Notes: generated by a model from the letters alone, not told the origin. DNA of 64,000 bases from Candidatus Yanofskybacteria bacterium (GCA_003514055.1 DOSG01000002.1:79825-143824); one strand, 5' to 3'; positions 5,518-25,073 are shown, counted from the first letter of the stretch. Translations and numbers: made by a program.

Positions 5518-5518
5518 A

Positions 5519-6770: not shown

Positions 6771-6858
6771 CTTGAATGCACGGAGTTCTTCTGTTAAAAT
6801 ATCTAAGTTCTTATAGAACAATACATTCCGCGATAGCTCAATGGTAGAGCGGCTCCCT

Positions 6859-7387
6859 GTGGAGACTATTCCTTCGAAATAGCGCTATAATGTTATTAAT
6901 GAAGGATAAAAGAACCTATGCCGATCGTCGCGAGGAATTGATAAAAGCGGTCGCCAAAAGGCGACGCAAAGTCAAAAGTCTAGCGATAGAATATAAGGGT
7001 GGCAAATGCCAAGTTTGTGGATATTGTAAGTATCAAGGAGCTCTTGATATGCACCACATATCTGATAAGCAATTTGGCATCGGAGATAAAGGATATACGA
7101 GATCTTGGGAAAAGATTAAACAAGAACTTGATAAATGTATCCTTGTCTGCGCAAATTGTCATCGTGAGATAGAAGGCGGCATAACGCAGCTTTCCGATCG
7201 AAAGACGGATTGAAACTTTTCGGGATAACGGTGAAGCCCTAGTCCGCCGACTGGTGGATGGGTAATACCGTGGGAACCTCGTAAATTTTACGAGGGCGCC
7301 GTAGAGACTAGATACCGAAACGCCTAAATCGTAAGGTAAGATAGGGCGAAGATATAGTCCACCCCGTGTCGTAAGACATGGATTACG
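6859..7387 (+). mobile_element. Group I self-splicing intron (approximate boundaries) with an ORF in its 5' part
   Basis: Conserved core elements in the expected order: R-like gtagagactaga (~7296-7307), S-like aagatatagtcc (~7341-7352). P8-like hairpin cgccta...tagggcg between them. P9-like GNRA hairpin ccgtgtc-gtaa-gacatgg, then G before the 3' exon. Confidence 0.6.
6890..7213 (+). CDS. HNH homing endonuclease (intron-encoded)
   Basis: CQVCGYC...DMHHISDK...N...VCANCH pattern (CxxC...HH...N...CxxCH); 107 aa; lies entirely inside the intron. Confidence 0.75.
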   Translation: MLLMKDKRTYADRREELIKAVAKRRRKVKSLAIEYKGGKCQVCGYCKYQGALDMHHISDKQFGIGDKGYTRSWEKIKQELDKCILVCANCHREIEGGITQLSDRKTD

Positions 7388-9011
7388 TGTAAGGAGAAGG
7401 TTCCAGGTTCGAGTCCTGGTCGCGGAGCAGAGGGTTCAAACCAGCGCCCGAAAGGGCGTTTTGGTTTGGATTAGAGCCACTTTTTGGCGGTTCTAAAGTT
7501 TGTTTTTGTAGTTTTGCCTGTTCTGCCCTTTCTTTTATCCTTAATATCGGTTTTTTATAGAATTTGCCCAATATCTCGCCGTTTAAAGTAAGGTTCGAGA
7601 ATATAAGCGACATGAACTCTCTTTTTGCCGGTATGTCGTCTTTTAGTGATTCGTATATTTCTTTTGATTTTCTGGCCAATTCCATAAAAGAACTACCGAG
7701 TAAGAGGAAATGAGTATTGTTTTGTTTTAATTTTGATTTTTCATCGATAACCCTTTGTTGATCCTGGTCCCACGTTTGGATATTACGGTTGTATTGGTCT
7801 TCAGATATCTTGCCGTCTAGCTTGTCTATATAGCAACGATCCTTGCGTTGCTGAAGAATCTGGAATTGTCGATCCAGATTCTCGGTTGCATTTTCAAAGT
7901 AATTAACTTCTTCCCGATGATTGCTTTTTAGTACTTCCTGGACCAGGGCAATTTCGTCCGGATCAAGCCCTTGGTGGAACCAGTCGAATATCTCCTTGGC
8001 CTGGGCCTCTATCCGGTCCTCACGTGCGAATTTTAGGCCCCTACAACCCTTATAGCCGTTACATCGGTAATAGGTTCGCCCTTTATGTATCTCACCACAT
8101 ACGGTGCCACCACAGGCCTTACAGTAAACCAACTGCTTAAAGAGGTGGAAGTGCTTCCTGTGTTTAGGCGTTGTTTTGGAATGCATGAGGGACTGCACCT
8201 GGTCAAATAACTCTTTCGATATCAATGCCGGGTGCTTGGCCGGATAGATAACACCTTTCCAAACCATCGAACCGTAGTAAAAGGGATCAGACAAAAGTTC
8301 TGCAATCCGGCTTTTAAGTATCTTTCGGCCGGACTCATTTCTTAAACCTTCTCGATATAACAGCTCAACAAGTGATTTTAGTGAATGCTGACCGGAAGCA
8401 TACAATTCAAACATACGACGAGCATACGGCGATTTATTCTCATCAACTATGTGGATCTTCCTGCCCTTTTCTCCGATGGTCTTATAGCCGATAGGGGGCC
8501 TAGTGGGAAGCCAGCCCTCTTTCAGTTTTTGTGCCTGGCCCTTTTTAACCTCCTCGGACAGGTTGTTTGAGTAAAACCTAGCAATAGCAATTTTCATATC
8601 CCATACCAGATTCTCGTGGGCCTTGGTATTCTTATTTGCTATGAAGTTCTCTTTTACGAAGTGTACTTTTCGGTTTTCATTCTCAAAAACCCAATCGCCC
8701 GCTATAATTGCTTCTTTTTGATTTCGAGTCATCCGATCGATTTTCTCGCATAAGATGTTGCCAGTATTATGGTCAACAGCATAATCAATCATCTGCTTAA
8801 ATATCTTTCGTGTCTGTTTTCCGCTTGCTGATTCTGGTACAGAGAACTCCTTAACGATCTTAAGGTTTTTGGAAGCAGCATAAGTCCTGAGCAACTCCGA
8901 TTGCGCGGCTAGGGAATACCCTTCTTCTGCCTGTTCTTTAGTGGATACCCGGCAATATAGAATTGCACAGTCGACTCTTATTCTTTGTATTTTTTGGTTT
9001 TCGGAAGCCAT
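7383..9011 (-). CDS. Large serine recombinase / integrase
   Basis: N-terminal resolvase catalytic domain (AILYCRVSTKEQ, YSLAAQ); recombinase domain; Zn-ribbon CKACGGTVCG...YYRCNGYKGC; coiled-coil C-terminus; 3' end overlaps the tRNA 3' exon on the opposite strand. Confidence 0.85.
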   Translation of the reverse strand: MASENQKIQRIRVDCAILYCRVSTKEQAEEGYSLAAQSELLRTYAASKNLKIVKEFSVPESASGKQTRKIFKQMIDYAVDHNTGNILCEKIDRMTRNQKEAIIAGDWVFENENRKVHFVKENFIANKNTKAHENLVWDMKIAIARFYSNNLSEEVKKGQAQKLKEGWLPTRPPIGYKTIGEKGRKIHIVDENKSPYARRMFELYASGQHSLKSLVELLYREGLRNESGRKILKSRIAELLSDPFYYGSMVWKGVIYPAKHPALISKELFDQVQSLMHSKTTPKHRKHFHLFKQLVYCKACGGTVCGEIHKGRTYYRCNGYKGCRGLKFAREDRIEAQAKEIFDWFHQGLDPDEIALVQEVLKSNHREEVNYFENATENLDRQFQILQQRKDRCYIDKLDGKISEDQYNRNIQTWDQDQQRVIDEKSKLKQNNTHFLLLGSSFMELARKSKEIYESLKDDIPAKREFMSLIFSNLTLNGEILGKFYKKPILRIKERAEQAKLQKQTLEPPKSGSNPNQNALSGAGLNPLLRDQDSNLEPSPYT

Positions 9012-9245: not shown

Positions 9246-9350
9246 TATTCTAGTAATTAATTTTAGACTTTTTATCTAAGACATTTTTATAACTTTTTCT
9301 TACTATTCTTATTTGTGTAAGCATAACCTTACGGGGCTATGCGATTATGT

Positions 9351-10802: not shown

Positions 10803-11076
10803 AACCGTAGCGATTTTTAGTCAATTTTTCAAGTAGAGCAAGACCTTTTAATCATTGAGTGTTTGTGGTAAATTTAGCGTAACAATTCAGCCTAAACCAA
10901 TCGGGGCAACCTGATTAGCATGGCATCAAATACCGACGAAGATACTGAACCCATCGTTCAGGCTCCTTCGTCGGTCCATACCCGAAAGGGTGTGGGAGAG
11001 TGAAAGCTCTCGGCCTAGCGGTGGGTTTAGTGTTATACAAAACCCTGAGTCCCCATTAGCCGAGGCAAAATATACC

Positions 11077-11547: not shown

Positions 11548-11655
11548 ATAATGGGAGGATATCCCGACAAGGTTCAATACGATCTTGTCCAGTATCCATG
11601 TTGATTTTATTGTCTATTTCTGCGAGGATGTCTTCATCTAAATAATTTCAGCAAT

Positions 11656-14885: not shown

Positions 14886-15147
14886 TCCTGCTTTAAATTT
14901 AGCAAATTTATGAGACCTTGGCCAGAGTGGGTTAACAACAGGTGAAATTAAAGAAATCTATTCAATTTTTTTTGTAGTAAATCCAGGTCTCCGAATTCTT
15001 CGACCCAATCAATCTGTCTGAAATCGTCCTTCAGTGCGAGCTAGTAGCGCTGTTATAATGAGAGCCAGCATTATCTGACTTTTTAGTTATAACAAGTATG
15101 GACGGTAGAGCTAACTTCTGATAACCTTATCGCATTCCATCAGAAGG

Positions 15148-15756
15148 TTGAGACCTATGCGACTAATTATCGGCACCACAAATGAGGCCAAGGTTAAGCA
15201 AATTAAAGGAGCCTTGCTGCCACTGAAATTTCAAGTTGATGGCGTCAAAGATAAGAGTGTTCTTCCTGAAGTAATAGAGGATGGTGCGACTGCTCAAGAT
15301 AACGCCAGGAAGAAAGCCGTCGCATATGCCAAGGTATTGGGCGCAACAGTTTTATCAATGGATAACGCCCTATTTATTGATGGTCTGAACGAGAAAGAGC
15401 AGCCTGGCATTAATGTCCGGAGAATAAATAGTCGAGATGACCGTTCGGATGACCAAGAATTATTGAACCACTATAGTTCCTTAATCAGAAGGCTCGGAGA
15501 AAAAGTCGGGGGGCATTGGGAGTTTGCGATATGCGTAGCGACTCCAAGCGGCGAGACTCGTGAGACAACGATCATATCGCCAAGATTGTTTGTTGCTCAG
15601 TCGAGTTCGAAGATAGTACCAGGCTATCCGCTTGAGTCGATTCAAATTGAACCAGAGAGTGGAAAGTATATCTCCGAAATGAGCCAAGACGAACAGGACG
15701 TGTTTTGGCAGAAAGCAATCGGGAAAGAACTATGCAACTTTGTCGGATCATTGTAA
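15148..15756 (+). CDS. Ham1/RdgB-like non-canonical purine NTP pyrophosphatase (tentative)
   Basis: N-terminus RLIIGTTNEAKVKQIKGAL resembles the RdgB/Ham1 start; about 200 aa. Confidence 0.5.
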   Translation: MRPMRLIIGTTNEAKVKQIKGALLPLKFQVDGVKDKSVLPEVIEDGATAQDNARKKAVAYAKVLGATVLSMDNALFIDGLNEKEQPGINVRRINSRDDRSDDQELLNHYSSLIRRLGEKVGGHWEFAICVATPSGETRETTIISPRLFVAQSSSKIVPGYPLESIQIEPESGKYISEMSQDEQDVFWQKAIGKELCNFVGSL

Positions 15757-15770
15757 TCCCAGGCCCATTC

Positions 15771-15900
15771 GCCGACTAACGTCGGCTTTTTTATTCCAAA
15801 CAGATTCTGACATCAATGCATCAACGGAGCTAGCAGCGCTGCTATACGAAAGTTGACAAATGCCACGAGGGTGGTATTTTAGACTTAGTTTGCTCACAAA
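15771..15900 (+). promoter_or_regulatory. Intergenic module A: hairpin terminator (gccgactaacgtcggc+T7), conserved element ccaaacagattctgacatcaatgcatcaacggagc, then promoter TTGACA / ATGCCAC-gagg-GTGGTAT / TATTTTAG
   Basis: a homologous module occurs at 22086-22185. Confidence 0.6.
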
Positions 15901-15909
15901 GGATAGGCA

Positions 15910-16113
15910 ATGGCCAAACTGTCCATTAACGATATAAGACGGCGGATTAAACAAGCATCAGAGACCGGGCAAGCCTCGTGCGACATCGGGATTGAAGGGG
16001 CATTTCTAGTTCTCTTTGCTGGGATGTCCTTGAATGAAAGAAAACATATATCGAAACGAAAAAGTGAGGGGCGAAGAAGGCCAAACTCAAGCTCAAAGAA
16101 AAGAGCTCGCTGA
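15910..16113 (+). CDS. Small basic protein (67 aa), hypothetical
   Basis: ORF directly downstream of the operator-bearing promoter. Confidence 0.35.
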   Translation: MAKLSINDIRRRIKQASETGQASCDIGIEGAFLVLFAGMSLNERKHISKRKSEGRRRPNSSSKKRAR

Positions 16114-16228
16114 CCGAGAACGGTCATTTTTTAATCCAAACAGATCCTGGCATTCTTTACTCAGCGGAGCACCTATAAAAAGCCAGATAATACTGGCTTT
16201 TTGGTTGGACCTAATGTGGACGTTAGAA

Positions 16229-16927
16229 CTAATCTATCCTTTTCAAGACAAGGTCGCTGAACATACCCGGTATATTTTCGATTACCCACCCTGGCATATA
16301 TTTTTCAAACATAATTTTAAAATACTCCGAGCGTTCTTTCGCCTTACCTTTCCTGCGTAATTTATCGGGTAAAAAATCCTTATCAAATAGTGAATAATAT
16401 AATTCGAACACTTCGTGAGGCAAATGTCCGCTTTTTATTTCATCTCGAGTCAATTTATTGTTGGGATTTGCCAGAATCTCTTCTATGCACCTCCCTACGT
16501 CGCTCCCATAATAAGCAGTATCTGCCGGTGATATGCCGATTGCTTTAATTGATTTCAAGGAAGCCGCGGCTTCAATAAAAGAAGAGATGGCATTCCGAAG
16601 TATCGTCTGATCTTCTGGGCTTAGCCTTATCCGGGCGTATGCATATTCTCTAGTTTTAAATAGGAAGCTGTAACTATTGCCATAGCCTTCGGAAAGTCGG
16701 AATATATACTTTAGCCCGCCAATCGTCTTTTGTAAGGTATAGCGATTGTATGGTTGCTCCTCGCGTCGGAATGCGAAGGGGTAGGTCGTTGAATGATAAA
16801 TCTTTCCTTCTTCTAACTCTGGAAGGTTTTCTAACTCCAATTCTCGTTCGCTTTCGACGACTATGGGGGAGTTCGGCTTATGCTCTATAATCTTTTTGGC
16901 TTCGTTACTATTCCATTCTTGGCTCAT
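16229..16927 (-). CDS. Hypothetical protein (232 aa)
   Basis: long ORF on the minus strand inside the cassette region. Confidence 0.5.
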   Translation of the reverse strand: MSQEWNSNEAKKIIEHKPNSPIVVESERELELENLPELEEGKIYHSTTYPFAFRREEQPYNRYTLQKTIGGLKYIFRLSEGYGNSYSFLFKTREYAYARIRLSPEDQTILRNAISSFIEAAASLKSIKAIGISPADTAYYGSDVGRCIEEILANPNNKLTRDEIKSGHLPHEVFELYYSLFDKDFLPDKLRRKGKAKERSEYFKIMFEKYMPGWVIENIPGMFSDLVLKRID

Positions 16928-17099
16928 GATAATAATTCTACTATTAAATTTATTAAATGGTAGGGACGGCTAGATTAAATATTCAGATATTCTCTCAAGT
17001 CGGGGATATGCAAAAAATTCTCTTTTTTGATCACAGTTCTAACGTCATTCACAATGCGGAGCATTTTTCAGAGAGTGGCTTAAAACACCACTTTTTGAT

Positions 17100-17221
17100 A
17101 TTGCAAATATTAGGATTTTGTGCTATAATATAGACAATGTTGCACCATCTAATCTGGATGCGTGCAGGCAGACCGTAAACCAACGATCCAGCACAGCTGG
17201 ACGGATGGAAGGAGAGCGGCT
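17100..17221 (+). promoter_or_regulatory. Promoter TTGCAAAT...TGCTATAAT plus a conserved 52-nt leader (hairpin ccagc-aca-gctgg; RBS ggaaggagag) ahead of paralogue 1
   Basis: nearly identical to 23146-23264. Confidence 0.55.
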
Positions 17222-17650
17222 ATGGCAACTATGGTGTTGCTCGACAACAATGGCGAGAAAGTACGGACTCTCGGGTCGATCATCAATCCGAACCCGGATC
17301 TGGTCATCCCGCAGGGGTGGATGCTCAGTTGGGAAAATCAGTTCATGGAGGTCACTGCGACCGATCGTCTGAAAAATGCCGTGCTTACGCACGGGAAGGC
17401 CCGCGTCCTGGTCAATGTCGTGATGCAGACGCTCGTGGTCAGAATCGAGAGCCCGAATGTGAGGGATCTCGTGGAGGCAATCGACCTCATGGTTCAGTAC
17501 GTCGGGGGCGAGGTCGCTACGTTCAGCCCCTCCGCCGCCAACAATTCGTTCGTCGGCGGCATCAAGAACGACCTCGTCTTTCTTCGAAACATGGCGGTAC
17601 GGGCCATTCGCTCGCTACGGCAGCGAACTGGCTTCAAGATCGCGCGCTAA
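17222..17650 (+). CDS. GC-rich hypothetical protein, paralogue 1 (~142 aa)
   Basis: start MATMVLLDNNGEK after the RBS; 180 nt identical to the 23218-23398 copy, then diverged; own big-stem terminator downstream. Confidence 0.6.
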   Translation: MATMVLLDNNGEKVRTLGSIINPNPDLVIPQGWMLSWENQFMEVTATDRLKNAVLTHGKARVLVNVVMQTLVVRIESPNVRDLVEAIDLMVQYVGGEVATFSPSAANNSFVGGIKNDLVFLRNMAVRAIRSLRQRTGFKIAR

Positions 17651-17855
17651 GCGCTCACACCTCGCATCGAGACAGGGGATCCCAATCCTCGTCTGGTGCG
17701 GGGTCCTTTGTTTTTATACGTATCCAAGACTAATTAAATCTCCCCGAATTCTTACTCAATCCAGCGTTCTGAATGCGTTCCGTAGGCAGAGCAAAGCTTG
17801 ACAATAGCACTAGATGGTGCTATTGTTATTTTAACCTTAAAACTAGGAGAGTGTC

Positions 17856-18059
17856 ATGCGAATAGTTGCCGATGCGTCAAAACGTACATTGAAATTAACT
17901 GCCGAAACTGATATTGACGAGGATGAATTGATAAGAGCGAACTACGTAGTGGTAAGTTCCAAAAAGTGGTACCAATTTTGGAAAAAATCACCAACCGTTA
18001 AATTGACAATGGCTGGAGATAAGAATAAATATCTTCAGGCAATAGAAATCTCTTTCTAG
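17856..18059 (+). CDS. Small hypothetical protein (67 aa)
   Basis: promoter TTGACA-ATAGCAC-N6-GTGCTAT upstream; RBS aggaga; terminator gacccacagtgtgggtc follows. Confidence 0.4.
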   Translation: MRIVADASKRTLKLTAETDIDEDELIRANYVVVSSKKWYQFWKKSPTVKLTMAGDKNKYLQAIEISF

Positions 18060-18127
18060 GTGACCCACAGTGTGGGTCTTTCTTTTGCCTCAAAACAGTC
18101 TCTAACATCAAAGCGTTCGGGGAGTTA

Positions 18128-18162
18128 ACTTGATTATATCACGGAAACGTGGTATAATTATT
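18128..18162 (+). promoter_or_regulatory. Promoter TTGATT-N17-TGgTATAAT (extended -10)
   Basis: acttgattatatcacggaaacgtggtataattat; near-duplicate at 19808-19842. Confidence 0.55.
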
Positions 18163-18197
18163 CTAGTTCTCAAAAACCCAAGAAAGGAGTCAGTATA

Positions 18198-19322
18198 ATG
18201 AGTCTGAAACTGCGTCGGAGAGATAGACTATGGGTCATAACCCAAGGCCTGCCGCACGCTGTCGTGGCGGAAGTCCTCCTCGATCCTTGGGATCAGGTGG
18301 GCGAAGTCGTTCTGTATGCAGATTCCTCCGAGCAAGTTCAGCTCGAGGTTCTGCGTCTTGCGGCCTCACATGTTCGACAGTACGTTCGACATCGGACGGC
18401 TTCGGCTTTCGGTGGCCTCATGGTTGCCGAACATCGTAATCACAACCTGACGCGAGATGATTCCGACCGTTTCATGGATTTCTCGACGATCCCGTCGGAG
18501 ATTCAGGAGATGAATCGGGAGACGCTCACAAGAGGACTTCGCGAACTCCACATCAGTGTCTTTGCTGCCGTCCATCGGCGAGCCGAAGATGCAATCAGCG
18601 CCGCCATCGAACAAGTTGGCGTCGCTGGTCTCAAGTACGAAGTGATTCCCCAAAGGATGATCTTCGATACCGAGTTGATGGTTCGTTTCACCGTCGAAGA
18701 GCCGAACAGCTTCACCTTCTGGCACAGTCAGTCCAGGCCTGGTGGCGGGTTCGATCTCTACATCGTCCCGGCTTATCATCCCGTGATGAACGGGAAAGAG
18801 TCAGTTGGAATGGTCAACGGCGCTACAGATGCTTACATTCGCGGCAACGCGGTGAGAAGCATCTACTGCCCGGAGGACGCACAAGCAACAGATCCCAGTA
18901 AGAACTTCGGTACGAGCTGGAATCACGTGAAGCATCCGTTCTACGCGACAGGTCGTTCGATGGCGGTGAAGTTGATCACCACGAAGGTTCGTTCAGCCGA
19001 AAGCATGGAGGAGCTCACTCAGCTTCTGCGTGCTGCTCTCGGTCTGGACAACAAGTACGTGGACATCAGCGGCGGTTTCAATGCTCCGCTAAAGTGCGGG
19101 TACAATCGCATCGTTGAACTCGGCATCAGATCGCCCTATCCGCAAGCCGAGTACAGGCGCGGCGGTAACATCACTCGCGGTTCCGAACAACATTGCGTAT
19201 GGTCTTATCGAGTCCTCAAGGAAGAGGGGCAACTCGAGAAGGCCTACATTCCTTCCTGGTTTATCAAAGAAGGCTGGCTGAAGATCTACGAAGGCGCTGA
19301 AGAACGCCACGGTCTCTACTGA
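18198..19322 (+). CDS. GC-rich hypothetical protein (374 aa)
   Basis: strong RBS aaaggagtcagtataATG; GC content far above the surrounding DNA; terminator 19347-19396. Confidence 0.6.
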   Translation: MSLKLRRRDRLWVITQGLPHAVVAEVLLDPWDQVGEVVLYADSSEQVQLEVLRLAASHVRQYVRHRTASAFGGLMVAEHRNHNLTRDDSDRFMDFSTIPSEIQEMNRETLTRGLRELHISVFAAVHRRAEDAISAAIEQVGVAGLKYEVIPQRMIFDTELMVRFTVEEPNSFTFWHSQSRPGGGFDLYIVPAYHPVMNGKESVGMVNGATDAYIRGNAVRSIYCPEDAQATDPSKNFGTSWNHVKHPFYATGRSMAVKLITTKVRSAESMEELTQLLRAALGLDNKYVDISGGFNAPLKCGYNRIVELGIRSPYPQAEYRRGGNITRGSEQHCVWSYRVLKEEGQLEKAYIPSWFIKEGWLKIYEGAEERHGLY

Positions 19323-19494
19323 TGAGCAAGCTCAGAAATCACCTGCCCGCGAGAGCCCGCACATTACGTGCCCGCCTCGCGGGCTCTCTCTTTTTATACA
19401 AACGCATATTTTATTAAATCATTGTGAATACTAACCCAATCCAGCGTTCTGAATGCGTTCCGTAGGCAGAGCTGACAGCATTATTGCAAGTATA

Positions 19495-19524
19495 TTGACA
19501 AATACCACGCGAGTGGTATTCTAG
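19495..19524 (+). promoter_or_regulatory. Promoter with operator: TTGACA-a-ATACCAC-gcga-GTGGTAT-TCTAG
   Basis: perfect 7-bp inverted repeat between -35 and -10. Confidence 0.6.
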
Positions 19525-19556
19525 GTCAAGTTGATCGTTCTCTGAGGTAAGAGGCG

Positions 19557-19742
19557 ATGAATAAAAAACCACGTTCACCATATCGCAAGAAGCCTTTGCC
19601 TTGTCCTTTTGGATGTCCTGGGTGTTTAGGGAGATTTTTGGGCAAAAAATGTGAATGTTCGAATACGCTGTCAACGTGTCAGCGTGCTCGCAAAGGCGAG
19701 TGCAATGAGTGCCATGCCTGTCGTTCATGTCGAGATGCATGA
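19557..19742 (+). CDS. Cysteine-rich small peptide (61 aa, 12 Cys)
   Basis: CPFGCPGCLGRFLGKKCECSNTLSTCQRARKGECNECHACRSC; RBS gaggtaagagg; terminator caaaccgccatattggcggttt follows. Confidence 0.45.
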   Translation: MNKKPRSPYRKKPLPCPFGCPGCLGRFLGKKCECSNTLSTCQRARKGECNECHACRSCRDA

Positions 19743-19856
19743 TCAAACCGCCATATTGGCGGTTTTTATTTTCTAGATAGATCCTGATTTTATCCAGCGG
19801 AGTAGCACTTGATTATATCGTGTAAATGTGGTATAATTACTATACGGGGTGGCAAA

Positions 19857-20138
19857 ATGAATAAGGATACCGGGTGGATGATTGCTTCCGGGGTGGTAGG
19901 CTTCTTGTTCTTCTTGATCGCAAATTTCACAAACTTCTTTGCTGGCGCTAGTGTTCTGGCCGGCTGTCTCCAGCTTTGTGTTAATGCTTTTGTGTTCGTT
20001 GTCTGGGCCAGAGCATTCATGCGAAGCCATGGTTTTAAGAAGTTTGTGGCTTTCTTCGGAGTGATCGTCCCCGTCGGTATGGCGGGCGTTACTCTTTGGA
20101 GAATTCTAATCCCTGCAATCACAGCATCATTTGTTTGA
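19857..20138 (+). CDS. Small membrane protein (93 aa)
   Basis: two predicted TM segments; extended -10 promoter 19808-19842; terminator gaccgagaacggtc+T7 follows. Confidence 0.5.
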   Translation: MNKDTGWMIASGVVGFLFFLIANFTNFFAGASVLAGCLQLCVNAFVFVVWARAFMRSHGFKKFVAFFGVIVPVGMAGVTLWRILIPAITASFV

Positions 20139-20265
20139 TGCTCGCTGACCGAGAACGGTCTTTTTTTGTTGCAAAATAGGTTCTGATATTGATGCGTCAG
20201 CGAAGTTGGCGGCATTGCTACGTGAAAGCCAGACAAAGCTGGCTTTTTGGTTGAATCTGGTATAG

Positions 20266-20760
20266 ATGCCGGGGCTATGCTACGATTGGATCATGAATAT
20301 CATGCGGATATTATTGTATACTCTGGTTGCACTATTATTATGCTTGGTGGTCGTCTGGCTTGCTGTTGGAATTTGGAATGTCGATAAAGTTTACGGAAAG
20401 AAGATGTTTGGCTACCAAGAAGACAAAATTTGTATTGAATGTTTCAATGGTACTCGTACGGGTACTTGTCCACAACTGATGGATGATAAGCTCACATATC
20501 CACGCGCCGCTGAATCAACAGAAATGATGGATTCGGCGCCTAATGATAGTTCGGATTATTCCGATAGCCATGTTATTAGAAATGGGTTTTGCACTCAATT
20601 TCACTCTACATTAACTACCGAAGGGCAGGATTATATTAAAAGATTCCAGACGATGCCAATACCGGAGAAGAGTTATGCTGAGTCGCTTGGGGTAGCTTGG
20701 CGATATGTGGGAGATTTTTTTGTTGCTATTATCTGTCGCACCATTGGATGTAAAATGTAG
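20266..20760 (+). CDS. Membrane-anchored Cys-containing hypothetical protein (164 aa)
   Basis: N-terminal TM segment; terminator 20808-20850. Confidence 0.45.
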   Translation: MPGLCYDWIMNIMRILLYTLVALLLCLVVVWLAVGIWNVDKVYGKKMFGYQEDKICIECFNGTRTGTCPQLMDDKLTYPRAAESTEMMDSAPNDSSDYSDSHVIRNGFCTQFHSTLTTEGQDYIKRFQTMPIPEKSYAESLGVAWRYVGDFFVAIICRTIGCKM

Positions 20761-20912
20761 TTTATTATTTAATCCAAGTAGACTCTGGCCTCATTCACCA
20801 GACCGATCAAACTAAAACACCGTATCTTATGCGGTGTTTTAGTTTGATCGGTCACTTATTCGTCGTAGAGTAGGCCACGTATGGCATACTCTTAACTCGG
20901 GAATATAGATGT

Positions 20913-22040
20913 TTATCTCAGCTCTTTGATCATCCGTAGCTTCAAGCTTACGGCCGTTCCAATTGCAGTCAGGCTGAACAGAGAAATAACGGCATACCCT
21001 ACGAATGGAATGAACCAGAGGATAATATATGCGGCCACGCCAATTAACATAGTCTTCCAGCTAACGTCGAAATTCGTTTTCTTAGTAAGCCATTTATATA
21101 GAAGTGAACCTATGAATATCGGAGTTAAGGCACAGCTAAGGATACTAAGAGCAACAATACTTATGATGCCTAAAATTCCAAGCGGAATTCCAACGACCGT
21201 AACCAGAAGTAGAATAGATATTACGGGTAAGATAATAACAGTGACGAACCCCTTTCCAAGTGCGGCCCAGGGAGACTTGAAGGCAGTCTCAACTGCTTCA
21301 ACGCTGTAGCGTCTGAACATGATACCCATTAAGAATACTAGGACAATCATCATCAAGGCCTTCATGATCAACCAGAATGATATGAAAGCTTTGATAGGTC
21401 GACTTTCGTTACGCATCGCTTTCGATTCATAAGAAACTGTGCCAAGAATTTTTGCCTCGCTATCTCTAGACATTTCATTGGGTGAACGATAGGTAAGATT
21501 GCCGCTAATAACAGCTTTCGGTCCCAATTTCAATTGAGTGGCATCGACAATAATATCTCCAGTCACGGTGGAATTTATATATACCAATGCTCCTGCTATC
21601 CGAGCCTTACCTCGAACAGAAGCCTCGACATTAATTGAATTGCCGCCAAGTAAGAGGTCGCCACCCACTTGGCCACCGGAAACCGTAATCTGATTGCCGC
21701 CTATCATGGCATCGCCGCCAACGTTGCCCTGAATAAAAACAGTATTGCCGATAATCTTAACGTCGTCGTCGACATTGGCAGTAATGACAACATTGTTGCC
21801 AGCTGAAAAGAGATCTTGGCTGACCTGGTTACTTATGAGGACGGATTGACCTGCCGCAAAGAGATCTCCGATTATTGTACCAGTGACGGATACGCTACTG
21901 CCGGCGATATACAGATCATCGCTGACTATCTCTGACGAGCCGACGGTTGGGTTGCTTCCGCTCGTAAATGTCGCACCAAGAGCTACCGCTGGCAACAAAA
22001 GTGCCATGGCAACAAAGAGTATAATTTTTTGTTTGTTCAT
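20913..22040 (-). CDS. Bactofilin-like (beta-helical repeat) protein with signal peptide and C-terminal TM domain
   Basis: repeated G-rich beta-solenoid units (IIGDLFAAGQSV.., VGGDAMIGGNQITVSGG.., GDIIVDA..) followed by four TM helices. Confidence 0.5.
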   Translation of the reverse strand: MNKQKIILFVAMALLLPAVALGATFTSGSNPTVGSSEIVSDDLYIAGSSVSVTGTIIGDLFAAGQSVLISNQVSQDLFSAGNNVVITANVDDDVKIIGNTVFIQGNVGGDAMIGGNQITVSGGQVGGDLLLGGNSINVEASVRGKARIAGALVYINSTVTGDIIVDATQLKLGPKAVISGNLTYRSPNEMSRDSEAKILGTVSYESKAMRNESRPIKAFISFWLIMKALMMIVLVFLMGIMFRRYSVEAVETAFKSPWAALGKGFVTVIILPVISILLLVTVVGIPLGILGIISIVALSILSCALTPIFIGSLLYKWLTKKTNFDVSWKTMLIGVAAYIILWFIPFVGYAVISLFSLTAIGTAVSLKLRMIKELR

Positions 22041-22152
22041 ATCTATACTATAGCAAGTATCAGCAAATTTTCCAAAAATTCTCTAGCCGACTAGCGTCGG
22101 TTTTTTATTCCCAACAGATTTTGGCCTCATTTGCTCAGCGTGATGCACTTGA

Positions 22153-22185
22153 TTGACAGAACGCGATTTCGGTGGTATTATTAAT
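22153..22185 (+). promoter_or_regulatory. Promoter TTGACA...GTGGTAT half-site...TATTATTAAT
   Basis: member of the operator-promoter family; left half-site degenerate. Confidence 0.45.
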
Positions 22186-22211
22186 ATATCCTGAAATCTG
22201 GAGGTTGTGCC

Positions 22212-22421
22212 ATGCCCGACATTCGTAAGTGTGCAGTCTGTCGCGTTGAGTTTGACTTCGACGAGTCCGGGCTAGAGGGTCCAAACGACGTCGTGGTCTG
22301 CGGCGCGGTCTGTGCCAAAAAGTCTGCCGCCAGTCGTGGAAGCGAATATGTGATCCACGACGGCGAGGGGGCGGTAGTTGAGACGAACATCACTCCTGGC
22401 ATCAAGACTCACCGCTGGTAA
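22212..22421 (+). CDS. GC-rich small Cys protein (zinc-ribbon-like CxxC...CxxxC), 69 aa
   Basis: CAVCRVEF...VVVCGAVC; RBS ggagg. Confidence 0.45.
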   Translation: MPDIRKCAVCRVEFDFDESGLEGPNDVVVCGAVCAKKSAASRGSEYVIHDGEGAVVETNITPGIKTHRW

Positions 22422-22462
22422 TCTTATCTCGAACGCCACATCAAGGAACAGGAGGAGTGCAA

Positions 22463-22678
22463 ATGAAAGTCACGGTTCTCGAGAAACCGACCGGAGGAAC
22501 GTGGTCACGATCTGAGGTTGAGGCTATCATGGGGACAATGACCGAAGTCGAACAGCTACCGAGGCTGCCGAATCGTATCGTGCTCATGAACAAGCCGCTC
22601 CGTGGTTCGATCTCGTGCGCTCTGGGCCACACCAACTACGTCGCGCGAGAAGTGGACTACCACGATCGCTGGGCCTAG
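22463..22678 (+). CDS. GC-rich small hypothetical protein (72 aa)
   Basis: RBS aggagg; terminator 22683-22740. Confidence 0.4.
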   Translation: MKVTVLEKPTGGTWSRSEVEAIMGTMTEVEQLPRLPNRIVLMNKPLRGSISCALGHTNYVAREVDYHDRWA

Positions 22679-22861
22679 CTATCGGCCCGCCTACTTGGCG
22701 ACGGAAACCCGTCGACTCAAGTCGGCGGGCTTCTTTTTTTATCCATATCCAGCTGAGTCTTTTTGGGTGTTTGCCGAGGTTGTCGATCTGAATATGTTCT
22801 GTGAGCGAAGCAAGGCATGCGGATGGTTTACGAATATCGTTTTAATTGATATGCTAAAGTT

Positions 22862-23062
22862 ATGCAAAAAATAGCTACAAAAGTATTCGTCGGGGCGTCT
22901 GTCGCTTTCGGTATTATCGGACTGTCGATGGTTGTGACAACATCTCCTGAAAGCAACGGCCCGAATGTTGTTCTGTTGAAACTTCTCTTCACTAGCGTCA
23001 TTGTCATTTTAACCTCGTTCGCTCTAAGTGTAGCCAGTAAGTATCTCAACAATAAGTCCTAA
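22862..23062 (+). CDS. Small membrane protein (66 aa)
   Basis: two hydrophobic helices; terminator aaaagtgcc-ttaaat-gggcactttttgg. Confidence 0.4.
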   Translation: MQKIATKVFVGASVAFGIIGLSMVVTTSPESNGPNVVLLKLLFTSVIVILTSFALSVASKYLNNKS

Positions 23063-23264
23063 TCTCAGTTAGGTTATAGAATTGATGCCCAAGAGGAGAG
23101 GGGCGCGTCTTTCAAAAAGTGCCTTAAATGGGCACTTTTTGGTATTGCAAACGTTACAGTTTCGTGCTATAATATAAATAATGTTGTGGCGTCTAACCTG
23201 GGCGTCGCGAACAGACCGTAAACCAACGATCCAGCACAGCTGGACGGATGGAAGGAGAGCGGCT

Positions 23265-23693
23265 ATGGCAACTATGGTGTTGCTCGACAACAATGGCGAG
23301 AAAGTACGGACTCTCGGGTCGATCATCAATCCGAACCCGGATCTGGTCATCCCGCAGGGGTGGATGCTCAGTTGGGAAAATCAGTTCATGGAGGTCCTCG
23401 CAAAGGACCACCTGAACAACGCCGTACTAACGCATGGGAAGGCTCTCGTTCTGGTCACCGCTATGATGAGTACGGTTGTGGTCCGGATTGAGAGCCCGAA
23501 CGTGAAGGACCTGGTCGAGGCGATCGACCTCGTGACCCGGTACCTTGGCGGCGAGGTTGCCACCTTCAGCCCCAACGCCGCCAACAATTCGTTCATTGGC
23601 GGTATCAAGAATGACCTCATCTTCCTTTGGGGGAAGACGACTCAGGCCATTCGCTCGCTACGGCAGCGGATTGGTTTCAAGATCGCACGCTAA
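23265..23693 (+). CDS. GC-rich hypothetical protein, paralogue 2 (~142 aa)
   Basis: same promoter, leader and first ~45 codons as 17222-17650. Confidence 0.6.
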   Translation: MATMVLLDNNGEKVRTLGSIINPNPDLVIPQGWMLSWENQFMEVLAKDHLNNAVLTHGKALVLVTAMMSTVVVRIESPNVKDLVEAIDLVTRYLGGEVATFSPNAANNSFIGGIKNDLIFLWGKTTQAIRSLRQRIGFKIAR

Positions 23694-23771
23694 GCGTGCA
23701 TGCCTCGCATCGAGACAGGGGACCTCAATCCTTGTCTAGTGCGAGGCCCTTTGTTTTTATTCGTACCGAAT

Positions 23772-25073
23772 TTATTTTAGGAACCAAGCCTTAACGACTT
23801 CTTCAGATGGTTTGTTGCGGAAGCCGGCCGATATCGATATCAGGGGCCTTACTTCTGGATCGAGAGCATCATCCCAGGCGAAATTACCGACGTTAATCCT
23901 GACGATATTCGTTGCATCTCGGACCACCGAAAAGAAGGAATTAAAAGCTTTGGCTTGCTCGTTGTAATCACTTTCAAGGGCTCTGATCGATGGGTTTTTG
24001 GAATCGAGATATTCGACTGGGCCAGCAAAAGTGCCGTCTGTATAGCTGGATGGTGCGAAGAATAGAGATACCTTTATTCCCTTCGCAATGGCCTTTCGGT
24101 TAACATCTTCGATCATTCTTCCCATCGCCGCATCGAATGATTCTTCTCCGTCTATTTTGTACTTGCCAGGTATAGCGTATATTTTTATCTCAATCACGTC
24201 GGCTTCCTTGTAATAATCATATTTTGTCCAATCTTCCTTTCCGTTTTTGCCGTCGATAAACCCGTATATATTCAGATCAGTCATTATCTCTCCTTTAAAA
24301 TTCTCCTTGACCTTAGATATGAGTTTTTTCCATAATCTATTCGCAAGCTCCTCGTGTCTAGTAAACGTTGGGTCCTGGAACATGGGCGATATGGACATAA
24401 TATCGACTCCAGCTTCCTGGTACATCTTACCCTTCTCTGATAATCGCGATTCCCATTTTTCGAAGTAATTGGAAATCCATTCTTCCGTATGTGAACTGTT
24501 GAAGTCTTCGTAATCTTTCGCGACGTCTGTGGTAATATCTCCTTTTATCCCAGACAATATGAATTTCCCGATATTCACGAAGGCCAGATTTCTTTTTATG
24601 CCAAGTTTCATCCCGCGTGAATGGGCGGCTTCTACGAGCTTCTCCAGATCCTCGGAGTTTATTGATTCGTCACGCATATCGTTCCAGAATGTTTCGTCAG
24701 CTAACTGATATGAAGTACTTTTATAGTCTGTCTCGTCGTCATATAGAGCCCTGTCAAAATCGTGTATGAATATCTCTTTGGCGCCAAGAGTTCTTACTCG
24801 TTCGAATGAACTCTCAATATTGGCCTGCGTCGTTTCGAACATTCCCATATTGTAGTTTCGGCCCCATGTGTCGTACATATTAACCGCTTTTATTTGAGGC
24901 AGAGGGGATGGAGAAACCGATACTTCATATTTGTGTACTATAAATTCTCCACGGCACCAGGGAGGAGTCGGCCATGGTCCGACAGGTGGGCAGATATTGG
25001 AAGCGAACATCGCGCCGATTAGTAGAAGAAGGATCGCCGCGATGATCGCAAGATAGATAAAAGTTTTTCTCAT
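23772..25073 (-). CDS. Membrane-anchored glycoside-hydrolase-like (TIM-barrel) protein, tentative
   Basis: N-terminal TM segment; 433 aa; overall composition only, no specific motif confirmed. Confidence 0.35.
   Translation of the reverse strand: MRKTFIYLAIIAAILLLLIGAMFASNICPPVGPWPTPPWCRGEFIVHKYEVSVSPSPLPQIKAVNMYDTWGRNYNMGMFETTQANIESSFERVRTLGAKEIFIHDFDRALYDDETDYKSTSYQLADETFWNDMRDESINSEDLEKLVEAAHSRGMKLGIKRNLAFVNIGKFILSGIKGDITTDVAKDYEDFNSSHTEEWISNYFEKWESRLSEKGKMYQEAGVDIMSISPMFQDPTFTRHEELANRLWKKLISKVKENFKGEIMTDLNIYGFIDGKNGKEDWTKYDYYKEADVIEIKIYAIPGKYKIDGEESFDAAMGRMIEDVNRKAIAKGIKVSLFFAPSSYTDGTFAGPVEYLDSKNPSIRALESDYNEQAKAFNSFFSVVRDATNIVRINVGNFAWDDALDPEVRPLISISAGFRNKPSEEVVKAWFLK

What the first reader, a model, noticed from the sequence alone, without database searches (positions are those of the whole stretch)
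15771..23760. ~8 kb array of monocistronic small-protein cassettes built from recurring promoter/terminator/spacer modules
At least 12 short genes (60-375 aa; many Cys-rich or membrane) each have their own promoter and their own hairpin terminator. The intergenic DNA is built from repeated modules. One is hairpin gccgactaRcgtcggc+T-run followed by ccaaacagatTctgRcat..atgc..tcagcgRagc (15771-15830 and 22086-22145). A second is gaccgagaacggtc+T-run, a related spacer, then aaagccagaNaaNNctggctttttggttg (16112-16205 and 20147-20250). A third is a 38-nt element aatccagcgttctgaatgcgttccgtaggcagagc (17755-17792 and 19435-19472). Two promoter types also recur: TTGACA-operator-TATTTTAG, and TTGATT...TGgTATAAT at 18128 and 19808. 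This looks like a cassette-accretion or shuffling hotspot and is not an ordinary operon structure.
Basis: seen in the sequence. Interest (0 to 1): 0.8.

Follow-up and report, generated by a model that had tools for sequence, protein, structure and literature searches.

The report
tRNA-anchored array of swappable gene cassettes
Downstream of a tRNA-Asn gene, this groundwater Parcubacteria chromosome carries a one-directional row of self-expressed single-gene units separated by a conserved 36-base joint that resembles the end of that tRNA; related strains differ by whole units cut at these joints, so the joints appear to mark where these tiny genomes gain and lose genes.

Summary
All the repeats exist at the stated coordinates and exceed chance. 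Promoter-like and terminator-like sites are 2-3 times more frequent than in shuffled sequence.

The "spacer modules" are one family of a ~36-nt oriented element. There are 11 copies at 15.0-22.1 kb, all on the + strand, and none in the other 56 kb. Each lies between a terminator T-run and a sigma70-type promoter.

The element is not private to this genome (Ca. Yanofskybacteria, Rifle aquifer). Its consensus, AAACAGGTTCTAACATCGTCCAG-N4-CGGAGC, recurs in many Parcubacteria metagenome contigs, always co-oriented within a locus, ahead of unrelated genes.

It resembles the last 31 nt of tRNA-Asn(GUU). Arrays start at tRNA-Asn genes: 12 of the 31 tRNA genes in the fetched loci are tRNA-Asn, with 21 modules downstream on the same strand and none upstream or on the opposite strand. 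In the window the anchor is an intron-split tRNA-Asn at 6827-7427, followed by a 7.6-kb element encoding a large serine recombinase. Homologues of that recombinase abut tRNA-Asn in two other lineages.

Near-identical strains differ by whole units with breakpoints at the modules (L052, L091/L139/L063). One assembly lacks 6 kb through recombination between two duplicated units (L145).

Best reading: a tRNA-Asn-anchored flexible cassette array, closest to the Dehalococcoides ssrA tandem islands, T4 PeSLs and integrons. The recombination mechanism is unresolved.

The parts
6827..7427 (+). Anchor of the array: tRNA-Asn(GUU) gene. Exons are 6827-6860 and 7390-7427, split by a 529-nt group I intron at position 35/36. 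The intron carries a 107-aa HNH-like ORF (6890-7213).
   Evidence: ARAGORN calls tRNA-Asn(gtt) on the spliced exons. Rfam Intron_gpI scores 44.6 bits, E 5e-10, at 7153-7381. The HNH hit is weak. Introns at 35/36 in Patescibacteria tRNA-Asn are described in PMC13011429.
7430..15005 (.). First and largest unit: a 7.6-kb integrated element. It holds a large serine recombinase (7383-9011, - strand, whose last codons overlap the tRNA 3' exon), iteron-like repeats at 9074-9292, an HTH/Rep-like ORF at 9351-9749(-), LOOT RNA at 10889-11011, four ORFs without family hits, and an N6/N4 DNA methylase at 13740-14885(-).
   Evidence: Pfam hits, Rfam and repeats D7/D8/D12. The element is absent from the alternative haplotype L052, which diverges from the window immediately after the tRNA's GGAGCA. 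Recombinase homologues overlap tRNA-Asn in the same way in L149-151 and L152.
15006..15041 (+). Junction module M1 (..TCTGAAATCGTCCTTCAGTGCGAGC), upstream of the Ham1 unit. It is also the right breakpoint of the window/L052 polymorphism.
   Evidence: In alignment A7 the window and L052 become identical from GAGC|TAGTAGCGCTG onward.
15157..15756 (+). Ham1/ITPase-like gene (199 aa), followed by a terminator at 15771-15786.
   Evidence: Pfam PF01725; terminator scan.
15795..15830 (+). Junction module M2, followed by a palindrome and the promoter at 15853-15880.
   Evidence: nhmmer E 5e-7 and E 5.5e-4; promoter scan.
15910..16113 (+). 67-aa ORF with a terminator at 16111-16126.
   Evidence: No Pfam, PHROG or PADLOC hit.
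16135..16170 (+). Junction module M3. It is followed by a hairpin at 16179-16203 and an inverted box A at 16219-16230 ('context b', the same arrangement found after tRNA-Asn in L052).
16229..16927 (-). 232-aa ORF on the opposite strand. No module lies upstream of its own promoter.
   Evidence: sequence read.
17027..17062 (+). Junction module M4 (GTTCTAACGTCATTCACAATGCGGAGC). This is the window copy closest to the Parcubacteria consensus.
   Evidence: The HMM trained only on metagenome copies gives E 2e-5.
17058..17760 (+). Duplicated unit W1: hairpin, promoter 17101-17129, 90-nt 5'UTR, 142-aa ORF 17222-17650 (GC3 0.76), terminator 17687-17703.
   Evidence: Repeats D1/D3, alignment A3, GC3. Only 4 homologue clusters exist.
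17757..17792 (+).
18090..18125 (+). Junction module M6 after the terminator at 18062-18078, followed by the promoter at 18130-18158.
18198..19322 (+). 374-aa ORF (55% GC) of a family specific to the candidate phyla radiation (CPR). Function and fold are unknown. Its terminator is at 19370-19384.
   Evidence: 58 homologues. AlphaFold2 pLDDT 93.8 with no PDB match. The homologue in L008 sits in another module array.
19437..19472 (+). Junction module M7 (identical to M5), followed by the promoter at 19495-19522 and a Cys-rich 61-aa ORF at 19557-19742 with a terminator at 19745-19765.
19772..19806 (+). Junction module M8 (4 nt shorter than the others), followed by the promoter at 19809-19837 and a 93-aa membrane ORF at 19857-20138 with a terminator at 20147-20160.
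20171..20206 (+). Junction module M9, followed by a hairpin at 20225-20249 (context b) and a 155-aa ORF at 20293-20760.
   Evidence: D16/D17.
20773..20808 (+). Degenerate junction module M10, followed by a bidirectional hairpin at 20809-20853 and a 375-aa DUF8173 membrane ORF at 20913-22040 on the - strand.
22085..22144 (+). 'Orphan' terminator hairpin (22085-22102) plus junction module M11 (22109-22144), with no + strand gene upstream. They are followed by the promoter at 22153-22181 and a bicistronic pair at 22212-22421 and 22463-22678 (GC3 0.66-0.69), with a terminator at 22708-22729.
22862..23062 (+). 66-aa membrane ORF.
   Evidence: no family hit.
23102..23760 (+). Duplicated unit W2: promoter 23145-23173, 142-aa paralogue 23265-23693, terminator 23730-23746. 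It is the distal end of the array and the partner of W1 in the 6-kb deletion or insertion seen in L145.

Best explanation
The finding is the distal two-thirds of a polar, tRNA-Asn(GUU)-anchored array (window about 6.8-23.8 kb) of self-contained transcription units in a Candidatus Yanofskybacteria (Parcubacteria) chromosome.

Neighbouring units are joined by a composite junction. It consists of an intrinsic terminator, then an oriented ~36-nt element (lineage consensus AAACAGGTTCTAACATCGTCCAG-N4-CGGAGC; diverged here), then, typically 5-6 nt later, a sigma70-type promoter with an extended -10. The 36-nt element is a conserved derivative of the last 31 nt of tRNA-Asn, and the real tRNA 3' end occupies the position of the first junction.

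The first unit is a 7.6-kb element with a large serine recombinase of a family that sits at tRNA-Asn 3' ends in several Parcubacteria. The remaining units are mostly single small genes, several with foreign base composition.

Shown: the anatomy; the conservation of the element across lineages; the polarity from tRNA-Asn; and the fact that closely related genomes differ by whole units with breakpoints at the junction elements or between duplicated units.

Inferred: units enter, leave and swap by recombination at the junction elements. This could be RecA-type exchange using the 36-100 nt of shared junction-plus-promoter sequence, as proposed for T4 PeSLs. Alternatively, the serine recombinase could act in trans on junctions as pseudo-attachment sites, as in the tandem ssrA islands of Dehalococcoides. 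The flanking terminator and promoter would insulate and express whatever gene is captured.
For: - Anatomy and local enrichment.
- Same element in a distant relative: in L008, every intergenic region of a 7-kb array has hairpin plus T-run plus ..GTTCTAACCTCCTCCAGCCAGTGGAGC plus about 5 nt plus TTGACA.
- Spread in metagenomes: 95 stretches matched a strict pattern, and most share the much longer consensus.
- Co-orientation: an HMM found 164 hits in 72 loci, always on one strand within a locus. 87 of 147 unique copies have a -35 hexamer 4-7 nt after GGAGC.
- Downstream genes are unrelated to each other: 126 proteins fall into 114 clusters.
- tRNA link: 12 of 31 tRNA genes in the fetched loci are tRNA-Asn(GTT); 21 modules lie downstream on the same strand, 0 upstream, 0 on the opposite strand.
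- The flanks of tRNA-Asn are the same two contexts that follow modules (loci L091, L058, L052).
- Module consensus versus tRNA-Asn 3' end: 21 identical positions against 14.4 +/- 1.8 for shuffles, with 1 of 2000 shuffles reaching the observed value.
- The window anchor is tRNA-Asn.
- The serine recombinase overlaps tRNA-Asn in the window, in L149-151 and in L152.
- Unit-level polymorphism: L052; L145; metagenome junctions.
Against: - No recombinase recurs in 32 module-rich loci, and most tRNA-Asn-anchored arrays have no recombinase next to the tRNA. Site-specific capture is therefore unproven.
- Modules precede ordinary cellular genes (pyruvate kinase, alanine racemase, UDG, methyltransferases) as well as ORFans, so they may primarily be a promoter element.
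- The window's own copies are diverged. An HMM trained only on other genomes finds just M4 significantly.
- Only 64 kb of this genome, and at most about 20 kb of any other, could be examined, so modules far from tRNA-Asn cannot be excluded. L149 has one module on the other side of its tRNA-Asn.
- The L145 deletion could be an assembly collapse across the 185-nt identical repeat.
- Breakpoints cannot be placed within the module because the copies are too similar.
Confidence: 0.65

Rival explanations
1. The 36-nt element is simply a lineage-wide promoter-upstream element spanning about -40 to -75. It would be bound by a transcription factor or by RNA polymerase, marking a regulon of monocistronic genes. 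On this reading the clustering reflects co-regulation, and recombination at the copies is an incidental by-product of repeated DNA.
For: - Fixed spacing: 87 of 147 copies have a TTGACA-like hexamer 4-7 nt after GGAGC, followed by a 17-nt spacer and a -10.
- The boxes are conserved while the spacer and promoter sequences vary between lineages.
- Downstream genes include ordinary housekeeping functions.
Against: - It does not explain the resemblance to tRNA-Asn or the strict polarity from tRNA-Asn genes.
- Minus-strand genes inside arrays have no module upstream of their promoters: 0 of 101 modules are on the opposite strand, against 9 of 91 ORFs.
- About 40% of copies are followed by a hairpin rather than a promoter.
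- The real tRNA-Asn 3' end substitutes for the element in front of a promoter (L091).
Confidence: 0.2
2. This is an integron-like, dedicated cassette-capture system. The tRNA-Asn-targeting large serine recombinase would integrate and excise small circular cassettes (promoter-gene-terminator-module). The tRNA-Asn 3' end would be the primary site and each module a cassette-borne secondary site, with the crossover at or just 3' of GGAGC.
For: - The recombinase family abuts tRNA-Asn in 3 of 4 loci examined.
- Both breakpoints of the window/L052 polymorphism, and the L091/L139 junction, lie at the GGAGC end.
- Modules in other lineages are closer to the pan-lineage consensus (77-100%) than to their own tRNA-Asn (55-68%). 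They are therefore a maintained sequence family, not decaying scars.
- Precedent: the Dehalococcoides ssrA islands, with a 540-aa serine integrase on the reverse strand next to attL and direct repeats of the ssrA 3' end (PMC3146451).
Against: - No recombinase was found in most module-rich loci.
- No circular cassette or empty-site pair was observed.
- Other breakpoints start at the 5' edge of the module, which fits homologous exchange equally well.
- Attachment sites of large serine recombinases normally share little sequence and leave no long repeats.
Confidence: 0.25
3. The region is a prophage or plasmid early/leading region whose small genes carry PeSL-like promoter-terminator cassettes.
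For: - Small ORFan genes, each with its own promoter and terminator.
- A serine integrase and a Rep-like ORF lie nearby.
- The recombinase resembles phage serine integrases at 24-29% identity.
Against: - None of 10 unit proteins has a meaningful PHROG hit.
- There is no DNA match in 50,697 phage records.
- The strict module pattern gives only chance-like, single, coding-region hits in IMG/VR.
- The region is flanked by dnaG-rpoD and other chromosomal genes.
- The 374-aa gene is chromosomal in other candidate phyla radiation genomes.
Confidence: 0.03
4. The modules are generic REP- or MITE-like extragenic repeats, or chance similarity between AT-rich intergenic regions.
For: They are short intergenic repeats lying next to hairpins.
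Against: - They are not palindromic and are strictly oriented.
- They are confined to one 7-kb stretch of the 64-kb window.
- They are conserved across distant lineages at 16 or more nearly invariant positions.
- A test for a hairpin within the element was weak: 61% of cells paired against 59% in shuffles.
Confidence: 0.02

Closest known systems
Dehalococcoides ssrA-specific tandem genomic islands (ssrA-GIs; McMurdie et al. 2011, PMC3146451)
   Same: Both are polar series of units downstream of a single tRNA-like gene. Unit boundaries are marked by direct repeats of that gene's 3' end. A serine recombinase of about 540 aa lies on the reverse strand immediately next to the attL side. Units lacking an integrase are interpreted as cis-mobilizable. 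The region is a strain-variable hotspot.
   Different: The anchor is tRNA-Asn rather than tmRNA. Most units are single genes of 0.3-1.5 kb rather than islands of roughly 7 kb or more. The repeat is a diverged 31-36-nt derivative with its own consensus conserved across a phylum-level group, not an exact 20-bp copy. The repeat is tightly coupled to a terminator on one side and a promoter on the other.
PeSLs (promoter-early stem-loops) of T4-like phages (Comeau, Arbiol and Krisch 2014, PMC4122927)
   Same: Both are small composite terminator/promoter sequences that flank small variable genes in hyperplastic regions. Both serve as exchange points between otherwise unrelated genes in closely related genomes.
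   Different: This is a cellular chromosome, not a phage. An additional conserved tRNA-derived element lies between terminator and promoter. The array is polar and anchored at a tRNA gene.
Integron cassette arrays
   Same: Both are co-oriented arrays of mostly single-gene units. Each unit ends in a recombination-site-like repeat, and the array starts at one primary site next to a recombinase gene.
   Different: There is no IntI tyrosine recombinase. The repeat is not an attC-type imperfect palindrome. Every unit has its own promoter and terminator, instead of promoterless cassettes read from a common Pc promoter.
Putative mobile promoters / promoter propagation (Matus-Garcia et al. 2012, PMC3488235)
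   Same: Highly similar upstream regions precede non-homologous genes, both within and between genomes.
   Different: Here the propagated segment is organised in one polar array, includes a tRNA-like element, and coincides with unit boundaries in strain comparisons.
Additive flexible genomic islands and CIME/ICE accretion
   Same: Strain-variable islands that differ by the presence or absence of gene cassettes through site-specific integration and tandem accretion (PMC4033161 for additive islands; accretion as cited in PMC3146451).
   Different: The units here are miniature, and the junction has a conserved regulatory architecture.

Membership tests
Integron | IntI-type tyrosine recombinase gene adjacent to the array | tested here: not met
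   The only recombinase is a large serine recombinase (PF00239 plus PF07508). No Phage_integrase hit occurs among 143 ORFs of module-rich loci.
Integron | attC sites: imperfect inverted repeats (R''-L''/L'-R') able to fold as hairpins at the 3' end of each cassette | tested here: not met
   The 36-nt element is non-palindromic. The only candidate stem is a 6-bp stem, and it pairs in 61% of cells against 59% in shuffles.
Integron | Promoterless cassettes expressed from a common Pc promoter | tested here: not met
   Eight TG-extended sigma70-like promoters, and a terminator for nearly every unit.
Tandem tRNA/tmRNA-targeted serine-recombinase islands (ssrA-GI type) | Array starts at the 3' end of a tRNA or tmRNA gene and extends downstream only | tested here: met
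   Window tRNA-Asn at 6827-7427. In 10 loci, 21 modules lie downstream on the same strand, 0 upstream and 0 on the opposite strand.
Tandem tRNA/tmRNA-targeted serine-recombinase islands (ssrA-GI type) | Unit boundaries are direct repeats of the target gene's 3' end | tested here: inconclusive
   The modules resemble the last 31 nt of tRNA-Asn (21 identities against 14.4 +/- 1.8 in shuffles, 1 of 2000 shuffles as high). However, they form their own conserved consensus and are not exact copies.
Tandem tRNA/tmRNA-targeted serine-recombinase islands (ssrA-GI type) | Serine integrase on the reverse strand next to attL | tested here: met
   The 542-aa recombinase at 7383-9011(-) overlaps the tRNA 3' exon. 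The same arrangement occurs in L149-151 and L152. This holds only for the first unit; the other units have none.
Tandem tRNA/tmRNA-targeted serine-recombinase islands (ssrA-GI type) | Demonstrated excision or integration (circular form, empty site) | not testable with these tools
   Requires read-level data or experiments. Only alternative haplotypes were seen (L052, L145).
PeSL (T4-like phages) | Composite stem-loop terminator plus early promoter flanking small variable ORFs | tested here: met
PeSL (T4-like phages) | Located in hyperplastic regions of T4-type phage genomes | tested here: not met
   The context is chromosomal (dnaG, rpoD, tRNA). No phage DNA or PHROG matches were found.
PeSL (T4-like phages) | Serve as exchange points between closely related genomes | tested here: met
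REP/BIME/MITE-type extragenic repeats | Palindromic units dispersed around the genome in both orientations | tested here: not met
   The copies have one orientation only, lie in one 7-kb stretch of 64 kb, and are not palindromic.
Putative mobile promoters | Near-identical upstream regions in front of non-homologous genes | tested here: met
   for example, about 90 nt of near-identical sequence precedes unrelated genes in L058, L084, L097, L113 and L046.

The most novel reading that the evidence does not exclude
Parcubacteria may possess an integron-like gene-capture system built on a different enzyme and site. A tRNA-Asn-specific large serine recombinase would insert and excise miniature circular cassettes. 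Each cassette would carry its own promoter, one gene, a terminator and a conserved 36-nt tRNA-Asn-3'-end mimic that serves as its attachment site. The result would be polar cassette arrays downstream of tRNA-Asn across the lineage.
Probability: 0.25. Interest if true: 0.9.

Novelty: new variant of a known kind. Interest (0 to 1): 0.72.

Why it matters
Candidate phyla radiation (CPR) bacteria have tiny genomes with many lineage-specific small proteins, and horizontal transfer accounts for a sizeable part of their gene content. How genes enter these genomes and become expressed is largely unknown.

This locus points to a concrete and widespread structure. There is a fixed chromosomal docking point (tRNA-Asn). 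There is a conserved junction element that can be searched for in any assembly. Each unit has a plug-and-play design of terminator, junction and promoter, which would express any captured gene independently of its neighbours.

If confirmed, three things follow:
- The flexible gene pool of Parcubacteria could be catalogued directly from metagenomes.
- Co-occurring strains could be told apart by cassette content.
- The lineage would gain defined promoters, terminators and possibly an integrase/attachment-site pair as genetic tools, which it currently lacks almost entirely.

Tried and rejected
- Rfam: nothing in the region, either at gathering threshold over the whole window (only LOOT RNA at 10889-11011) or at E-value threshold over 15.5-24 kb (only chance microRNA-like hits on a hairpin).
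- Structured RNA in the module: a 6-bp stem was tested on 59 diverse copies. 61.3% of cells paired against 58.8% in shuffles, and the covariation score was reached by 49 of 500 shuffles. Not convincing.
- Function of the unit proteins: Pfam, PHROGs and PADLOC gave nothing meaningful. The 142-aa paralogues have only 4 homologue clusters.
- Phage origin: no blastn match to phage records. The IMG/VR pattern scan gave only chance-like hits.
- Species-genome scan with the 374-aa family returned only 6 loci and not the source genome. A genome-wide module census of this organism was therefore not possible.
- A locally encoded recombinase common to module-rich loci: none was found among 143 ORFs.
- Alternative sigma-factor promoter readings of the two boxes (sigma54, ECF, sigma28) were considered from memory and dropped, because the conserved letters and spacings do not fit.
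- DNA-uptake sequence was considered and dropped: the element has strict orientation and local confinement.
- Literature: no paper in the searchable library contains the motif string GTTCTAACATCG. One preprint on promoter-terminator coupling was listed but could not be opened.

Full report
**1. What the window is**

The window is 100% identical to ENA scaffold ANAN16-1 scaffold_48 (171 kb) from the Rifle aquifer. It also matches GCA_001795995.1 and GCA_000995635.1, the latter named Candidatus Yanofskybacteria (Parcubacteria, candidate phyla radiation). It is chromosomal: dnaG and rpoD lie at 3676-6712, with a P-type ATPase, a CCA-adding enzyme and other cellular genes elsewhere. Overall GC is about 42%.

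**2. Check of the observation**

- the gccgacta.cgtcgg terminator plus spacer at 15771 and 22085;
- the gaccgagaacggtc terminator, spacer and aaagccag..ctggcttttt hairpin at 16105-16212 and 20140-20258;
- the exact 38-mer at 17755 and 19435, inside a 92-nt repeat;
- the two promoter types.

It also found a 660-bp duplication of a whole unit (17058-17760 and 23102-23760).

A consensus scan of 14900-23900 found 24 promoter-like sites against 12.6 +/- 3.4 in shuffles, and 23 terminator-like sites against 8.3 +/- 2.8. Eight TG-extended promoters each lie directly upstream of an ORF. None of the unit proteins has a meaningful Pfam, PHROG or PADLOC match. Five units have a GC3 of 0.56-0.76 against about 0.35-0.47 for their neighbours.

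**3. The 'spacers' are one element**

Aligning the sequences between each T-run and the next promoter shows a single family with two boxes at fixed spacing: (A)CAG(A/G)TTCT(G/A)AC-N14-(C)GGAGC. An HMM built from the window copies finds 10 copies, all on the + strand, all between 15.8 and 22.1 kb, and nothing below E=1 in the other 56 kb. An eleventh copy lies upstream of the Ham1 gene at 15006-15041.

All copies point the same way even where the adjacent gene is on the - strand (16229-16927, 20913-22040). One terminator-plus-element at 22085-22144 has no + strand gene to terminate.

**4. The element is conserved across Parcubacteria**

The 374-aa unit protein has 58 homologues, all CPR-like. 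In one distant relative (L008; 56% protein identity; a 452-kb contig) the homologue sits in another row of + strand monocistronic genes. Every intergenic region there reads hairpin, T-run..ACGTTCTAACCTCCTCCAGCCAGTGGAGC, about 5 nt, TTGACA.

A strict pattern scan of JGI metagenome contigs returned 95 stretches. Most share a far longer consensus than the pattern demanded: aaACAGGTTCTAACATCGTCCAG....CGGAGC.AA..ATTGAC-17 nt-TATATT/TATAAT.

Further properties of these copies:
- An HMM of the metagenome copies found 164 hits in 72 loci. Within every multi-copy locus all copies are on one strand (8/8, 7/7, 6/6 and so on).
- Positions 10-25 and 32-36 of the element are nearly invariant; positions 26-31 are free.
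- 87 of 147 unique copies have a TTGACA-like hexamer 4-7 nt after GGAGC. Most of the others are followed by a hairpin plus T-run.
- 93 of 146 copies have a T-run ending 1-11 nt upstream.
- The genes downstream are unrelated to each other (126 proteins in 114 clusters, median about 95 aa). They include ordinary cellular functions as well as ORFans.
- One locus belongs to Ca. Nealsonbacteria.

The same pattern in IMG/VR gave only single, coding-region, chance-like hits. No searchable paper contains the motif.

Caveat: the window's own copies are diverged. The model trained only on other genomes finds just the copy at 17036-17062 significantly (E 2e-5), although its next best hits are also inside the region.

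**5. The tRNA-Asn connection**

L052, a 3.8-kb contig from another sample, matches the window at both of its ends (window 7304-7429 at 100%; window 15017-15163 at 95%). Between them it carries 3.5 kb of other small genes with the same module types. The left match ends at ..GGTTCGAGTCCTGGTCGCGGAGCA, a tRNA-like 3' end.

Rfam finds a group I intron at 7153-7381 (44.6 bits). Splicing 6827-6860 to 7390-7427 gives a tRNA-Asn(GUU) by ARAGORN. Introns at 35/36 in Patescibacteria tRNA-Asn are a described phenomenon (PMC13011429).

ARAGORN on all fetched loci found 31 tRNA genes, of which 12 are tRNA-Asn(GTT). In the ten loci that hold both a tRNA-Asn and modules, 21 modules lie downstream on the same strand, none upstream and none on the other strand.

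The sequence that follows tRNA-Asn is the same as what follows modules:
- in L091, GGAGC is followed by aaaataTTGACC.. (a promoter at the usual distance);
- in L058 and L052, GGAGC(A) is followed by the same hairpins that follow the 'context b' modules, including window 16135-16203 and 17027-17096.

The module consensus aligns to the last 31 nt of tRNA-Asn (variable loop to discriminator plus C) with one 2-nt gap. It gives 21 identities against 14.4 +/- 1.8 for shuffles, with 1 of 2000 shuffles as high. Modules of other lineages are nevertheless closer to the common module consensus (77-100%) than to their own tRNA-Asn (55-68%). They are therefore a maintained family, not decaying scars.

**6. 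The recombinase**

Immediately after the tRNA's GGAGCA the window carries a 7.6-kb block that L052 lacks:
- a 542-aa large serine recombinase on the - strand, whose last codons overlap the tRNA 3' exon;
- iteron-like repeats next to an HTH/Rep-like ORF;
- LOOT RNA;
- four unknown ORFs;
- a DNA methylase.

The recombinase has more than 1,800 homologues, many labelled Paceibacterota or Parcubacteria. It is 24-29% identical to phage serine integrases. Of three homologue contexts fetched, two independent ones (L149-151 and L152) have the recombinase ORF overlapping a tRNA-Asn(gtt) on the opposite strand, exactly as in the window. This family therefore sits at tRNA-Asn 3' ends. By contrast, no recombinase recurs among 143 ORFs of 32 module-rich loci.

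**7. Evidence for unit turnover**

(a) Window versus L052. The two haplotypes share the tRNA up to GGAGCA, and become identical again from GAGC|TAGTAGCGCTG at the end of the module upstream of Ham1. Different content lies in between (7.6 kb against 3.5 kb).

(b) L145 (GCA_003509745.1; 99.2-99.6% identical to the window) lacks window positions of about 17723-23109. Its single 142-aa gene is an exact chimera: W1-type up to the 185-nt stretch that is identical in both window copies, and W2-type afterwards. This is the product of homologous recombination between the duplicated units. An assembly collapse across the repeat cannot be excluded.

(c) Among the metagenome loci, 21 of 62 internal ends of blocks at least 250 nt long and at least 75% identical fall within 3 nt of a module, although modules occupy only about 2-3% of the sequence. 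Junction alignments show, for example, rcL091 and L139 identical through ..CCCCGGAGC and unrelated from the next base on. Other pairs are unrelated up to GGTTCTAAC and identical afterwards. Because the modules themselves are alike, the crossover cannot be placed more precisely than 'within or at the edge of the element'.

**8. Interpretation**

The simplest account of all this is a tRNA-Asn-anchored, polar, flexible array. Its units are bounded by a tRNA-Asn-3'-derived junction element and are individually equipped with a promoter and a terminator.

Two steps remain inferred. First, the mechanism of exchange is open: homologous recombination on 36-100 nt of shared junction and promoter sequence, as proposed for PeSLs (PMC4122927), or site-specific action of the serine recombinase on junctions as pseudo-attachment sites, as in the tandem ssrA islands of Dehalococcoides (PMC3146451). 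Second, it is unknown whether the element also acts as a promoter-upstream site.

The pure promoter-element reading explains the fixed distance to the -35. It does not explain the tRNA-Asn resemblance, the polarity, or the absence of modules in front of - strand genes inside arrays (0 of 101 modules against 9 of 91 ORFs on the opposite strand). Prophage, REP-like and chance explanations are rejected.

**9. Comparison with known systems and novelty**

The closest described system is the Dehalococcoides ssrA-GI region: tandem units downstream of a tRNA-like gene, direct repeats of its 3' end, and a serine integrase of about 540 aa on the reverse strand beside attL. The present case differs in four ways:
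- the anchor is tRNA-Asn;
- most units are miniature, single-gene units;
- the junction consensus is conserved across a phylum-level group;
- the junction has a built-in terminator/promoter architecture.

It fails the defining tests for integrons: no IntI, no attC-type palindrome, and the cassettes are not promoterless. It shares the working principle of PeSLs but not their phage setting. I therefore file it as a new variant of a known kind. An integron-like serine-recombinase capture system remains a live, more novel possibility (probability about 0.25).

Noticed in passing
window 6827-7427: tRNA-Asn(GUU) interrupted at position 35/36 by a 529-nt group I intron. The intron carries a 107-aa ORF (6890-7213) with a weak HNH hit. 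ARAGORN and the Rfam gathering threshold both miss the gene. Introns at this site are known in Patescibacteria, but ones encoding a homing endonuclease are reported as rare.
   Followed up: partly
window 7430-15005: The serine-recombinase element looks like an integrated episome. It has three or four iteron-like direct repeats (9074-9292) beside a 132-aa HTH/Rep3_N-like ORF (9351-9749, - strand), a LOOT RNA (10889-11011, 76 bits), four ORFs with no family hits, and an N6/N4 methylase.
   Followed up: partly
[not shown]
   Followed up: partly
window 17222-17650, 22212-22678, 23265-23693, 47844-48359, 35355-36734: These ORFs have strongly elevated GC or GC3 (GC3 up to 0.80; 60% GC for the class-V aminotransferase) in a 42% GC genome. 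Each is fitted with low-GC native-looking promoters and terminators. This suggests recent acquisition from higher-GC donors.
   Followed up: no
window 15853-15882, 17798-17826, 18130-18158, 19495-19524, 45988-46017; also L056, L066, L080, L120, L127: Promoter spacers contain a palindrome (A)TA(C/G)CAC-N4-6-GTG(G/C)TAT whose right arm is the extended -10 (TGgTAT..). It recurs in several Parcubacteria lineages and at one promoter outside the array. It could be an operator for a common repressor or a structural feature of these promoters.
   Followed up: no
window 17130-17353 and 23174-23396: The two 142-aa paralogues share a 90-nt 5'UTR and the first 44 codons. Within this a 185-nt block is 100% identical, although the rest of the repeat is only about 84% identical. 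This suggests recent gene conversion or a constrained leader RNA. No Rfam match was found.
   Followed up: no
window 45600-48400: A second run of monocistronic small genes, including a cold-shock protein, a small basic protein and a high-GC 171-aa ORF. Each has its own promoter and terminator, but there are no junction modules. Monocistronic organisation alone is therefore common in this genome; the module is what marks the array.
   Followed up: partly
window 16219-16230; L052 about 168-186; L113 and L056 about 40 nt 3' of tRNA-Asn: An inverted copy of box A (GTTAGAAC) lies about 40 nt downstream of tRNA-Asn or of 'context b' modules, beyond a hairpin. Box A and its inverse thus bracket the terminator. 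Its significance is unknown.
   Followed up: no
window 16985-17025; L047, L056, L057, L096, L099, L118, L127, L128, L130, L132: Where a module is preceded by a divergent gene rather than a terminator, the upstream 40 nt is itself conserved (AAATCTGGnATGTAnATATA..TTTTG..gctnAATTATGG). It may be a conserved divergent promoter or leader.
   Followed up: no
[not shown]
   Followed up: no
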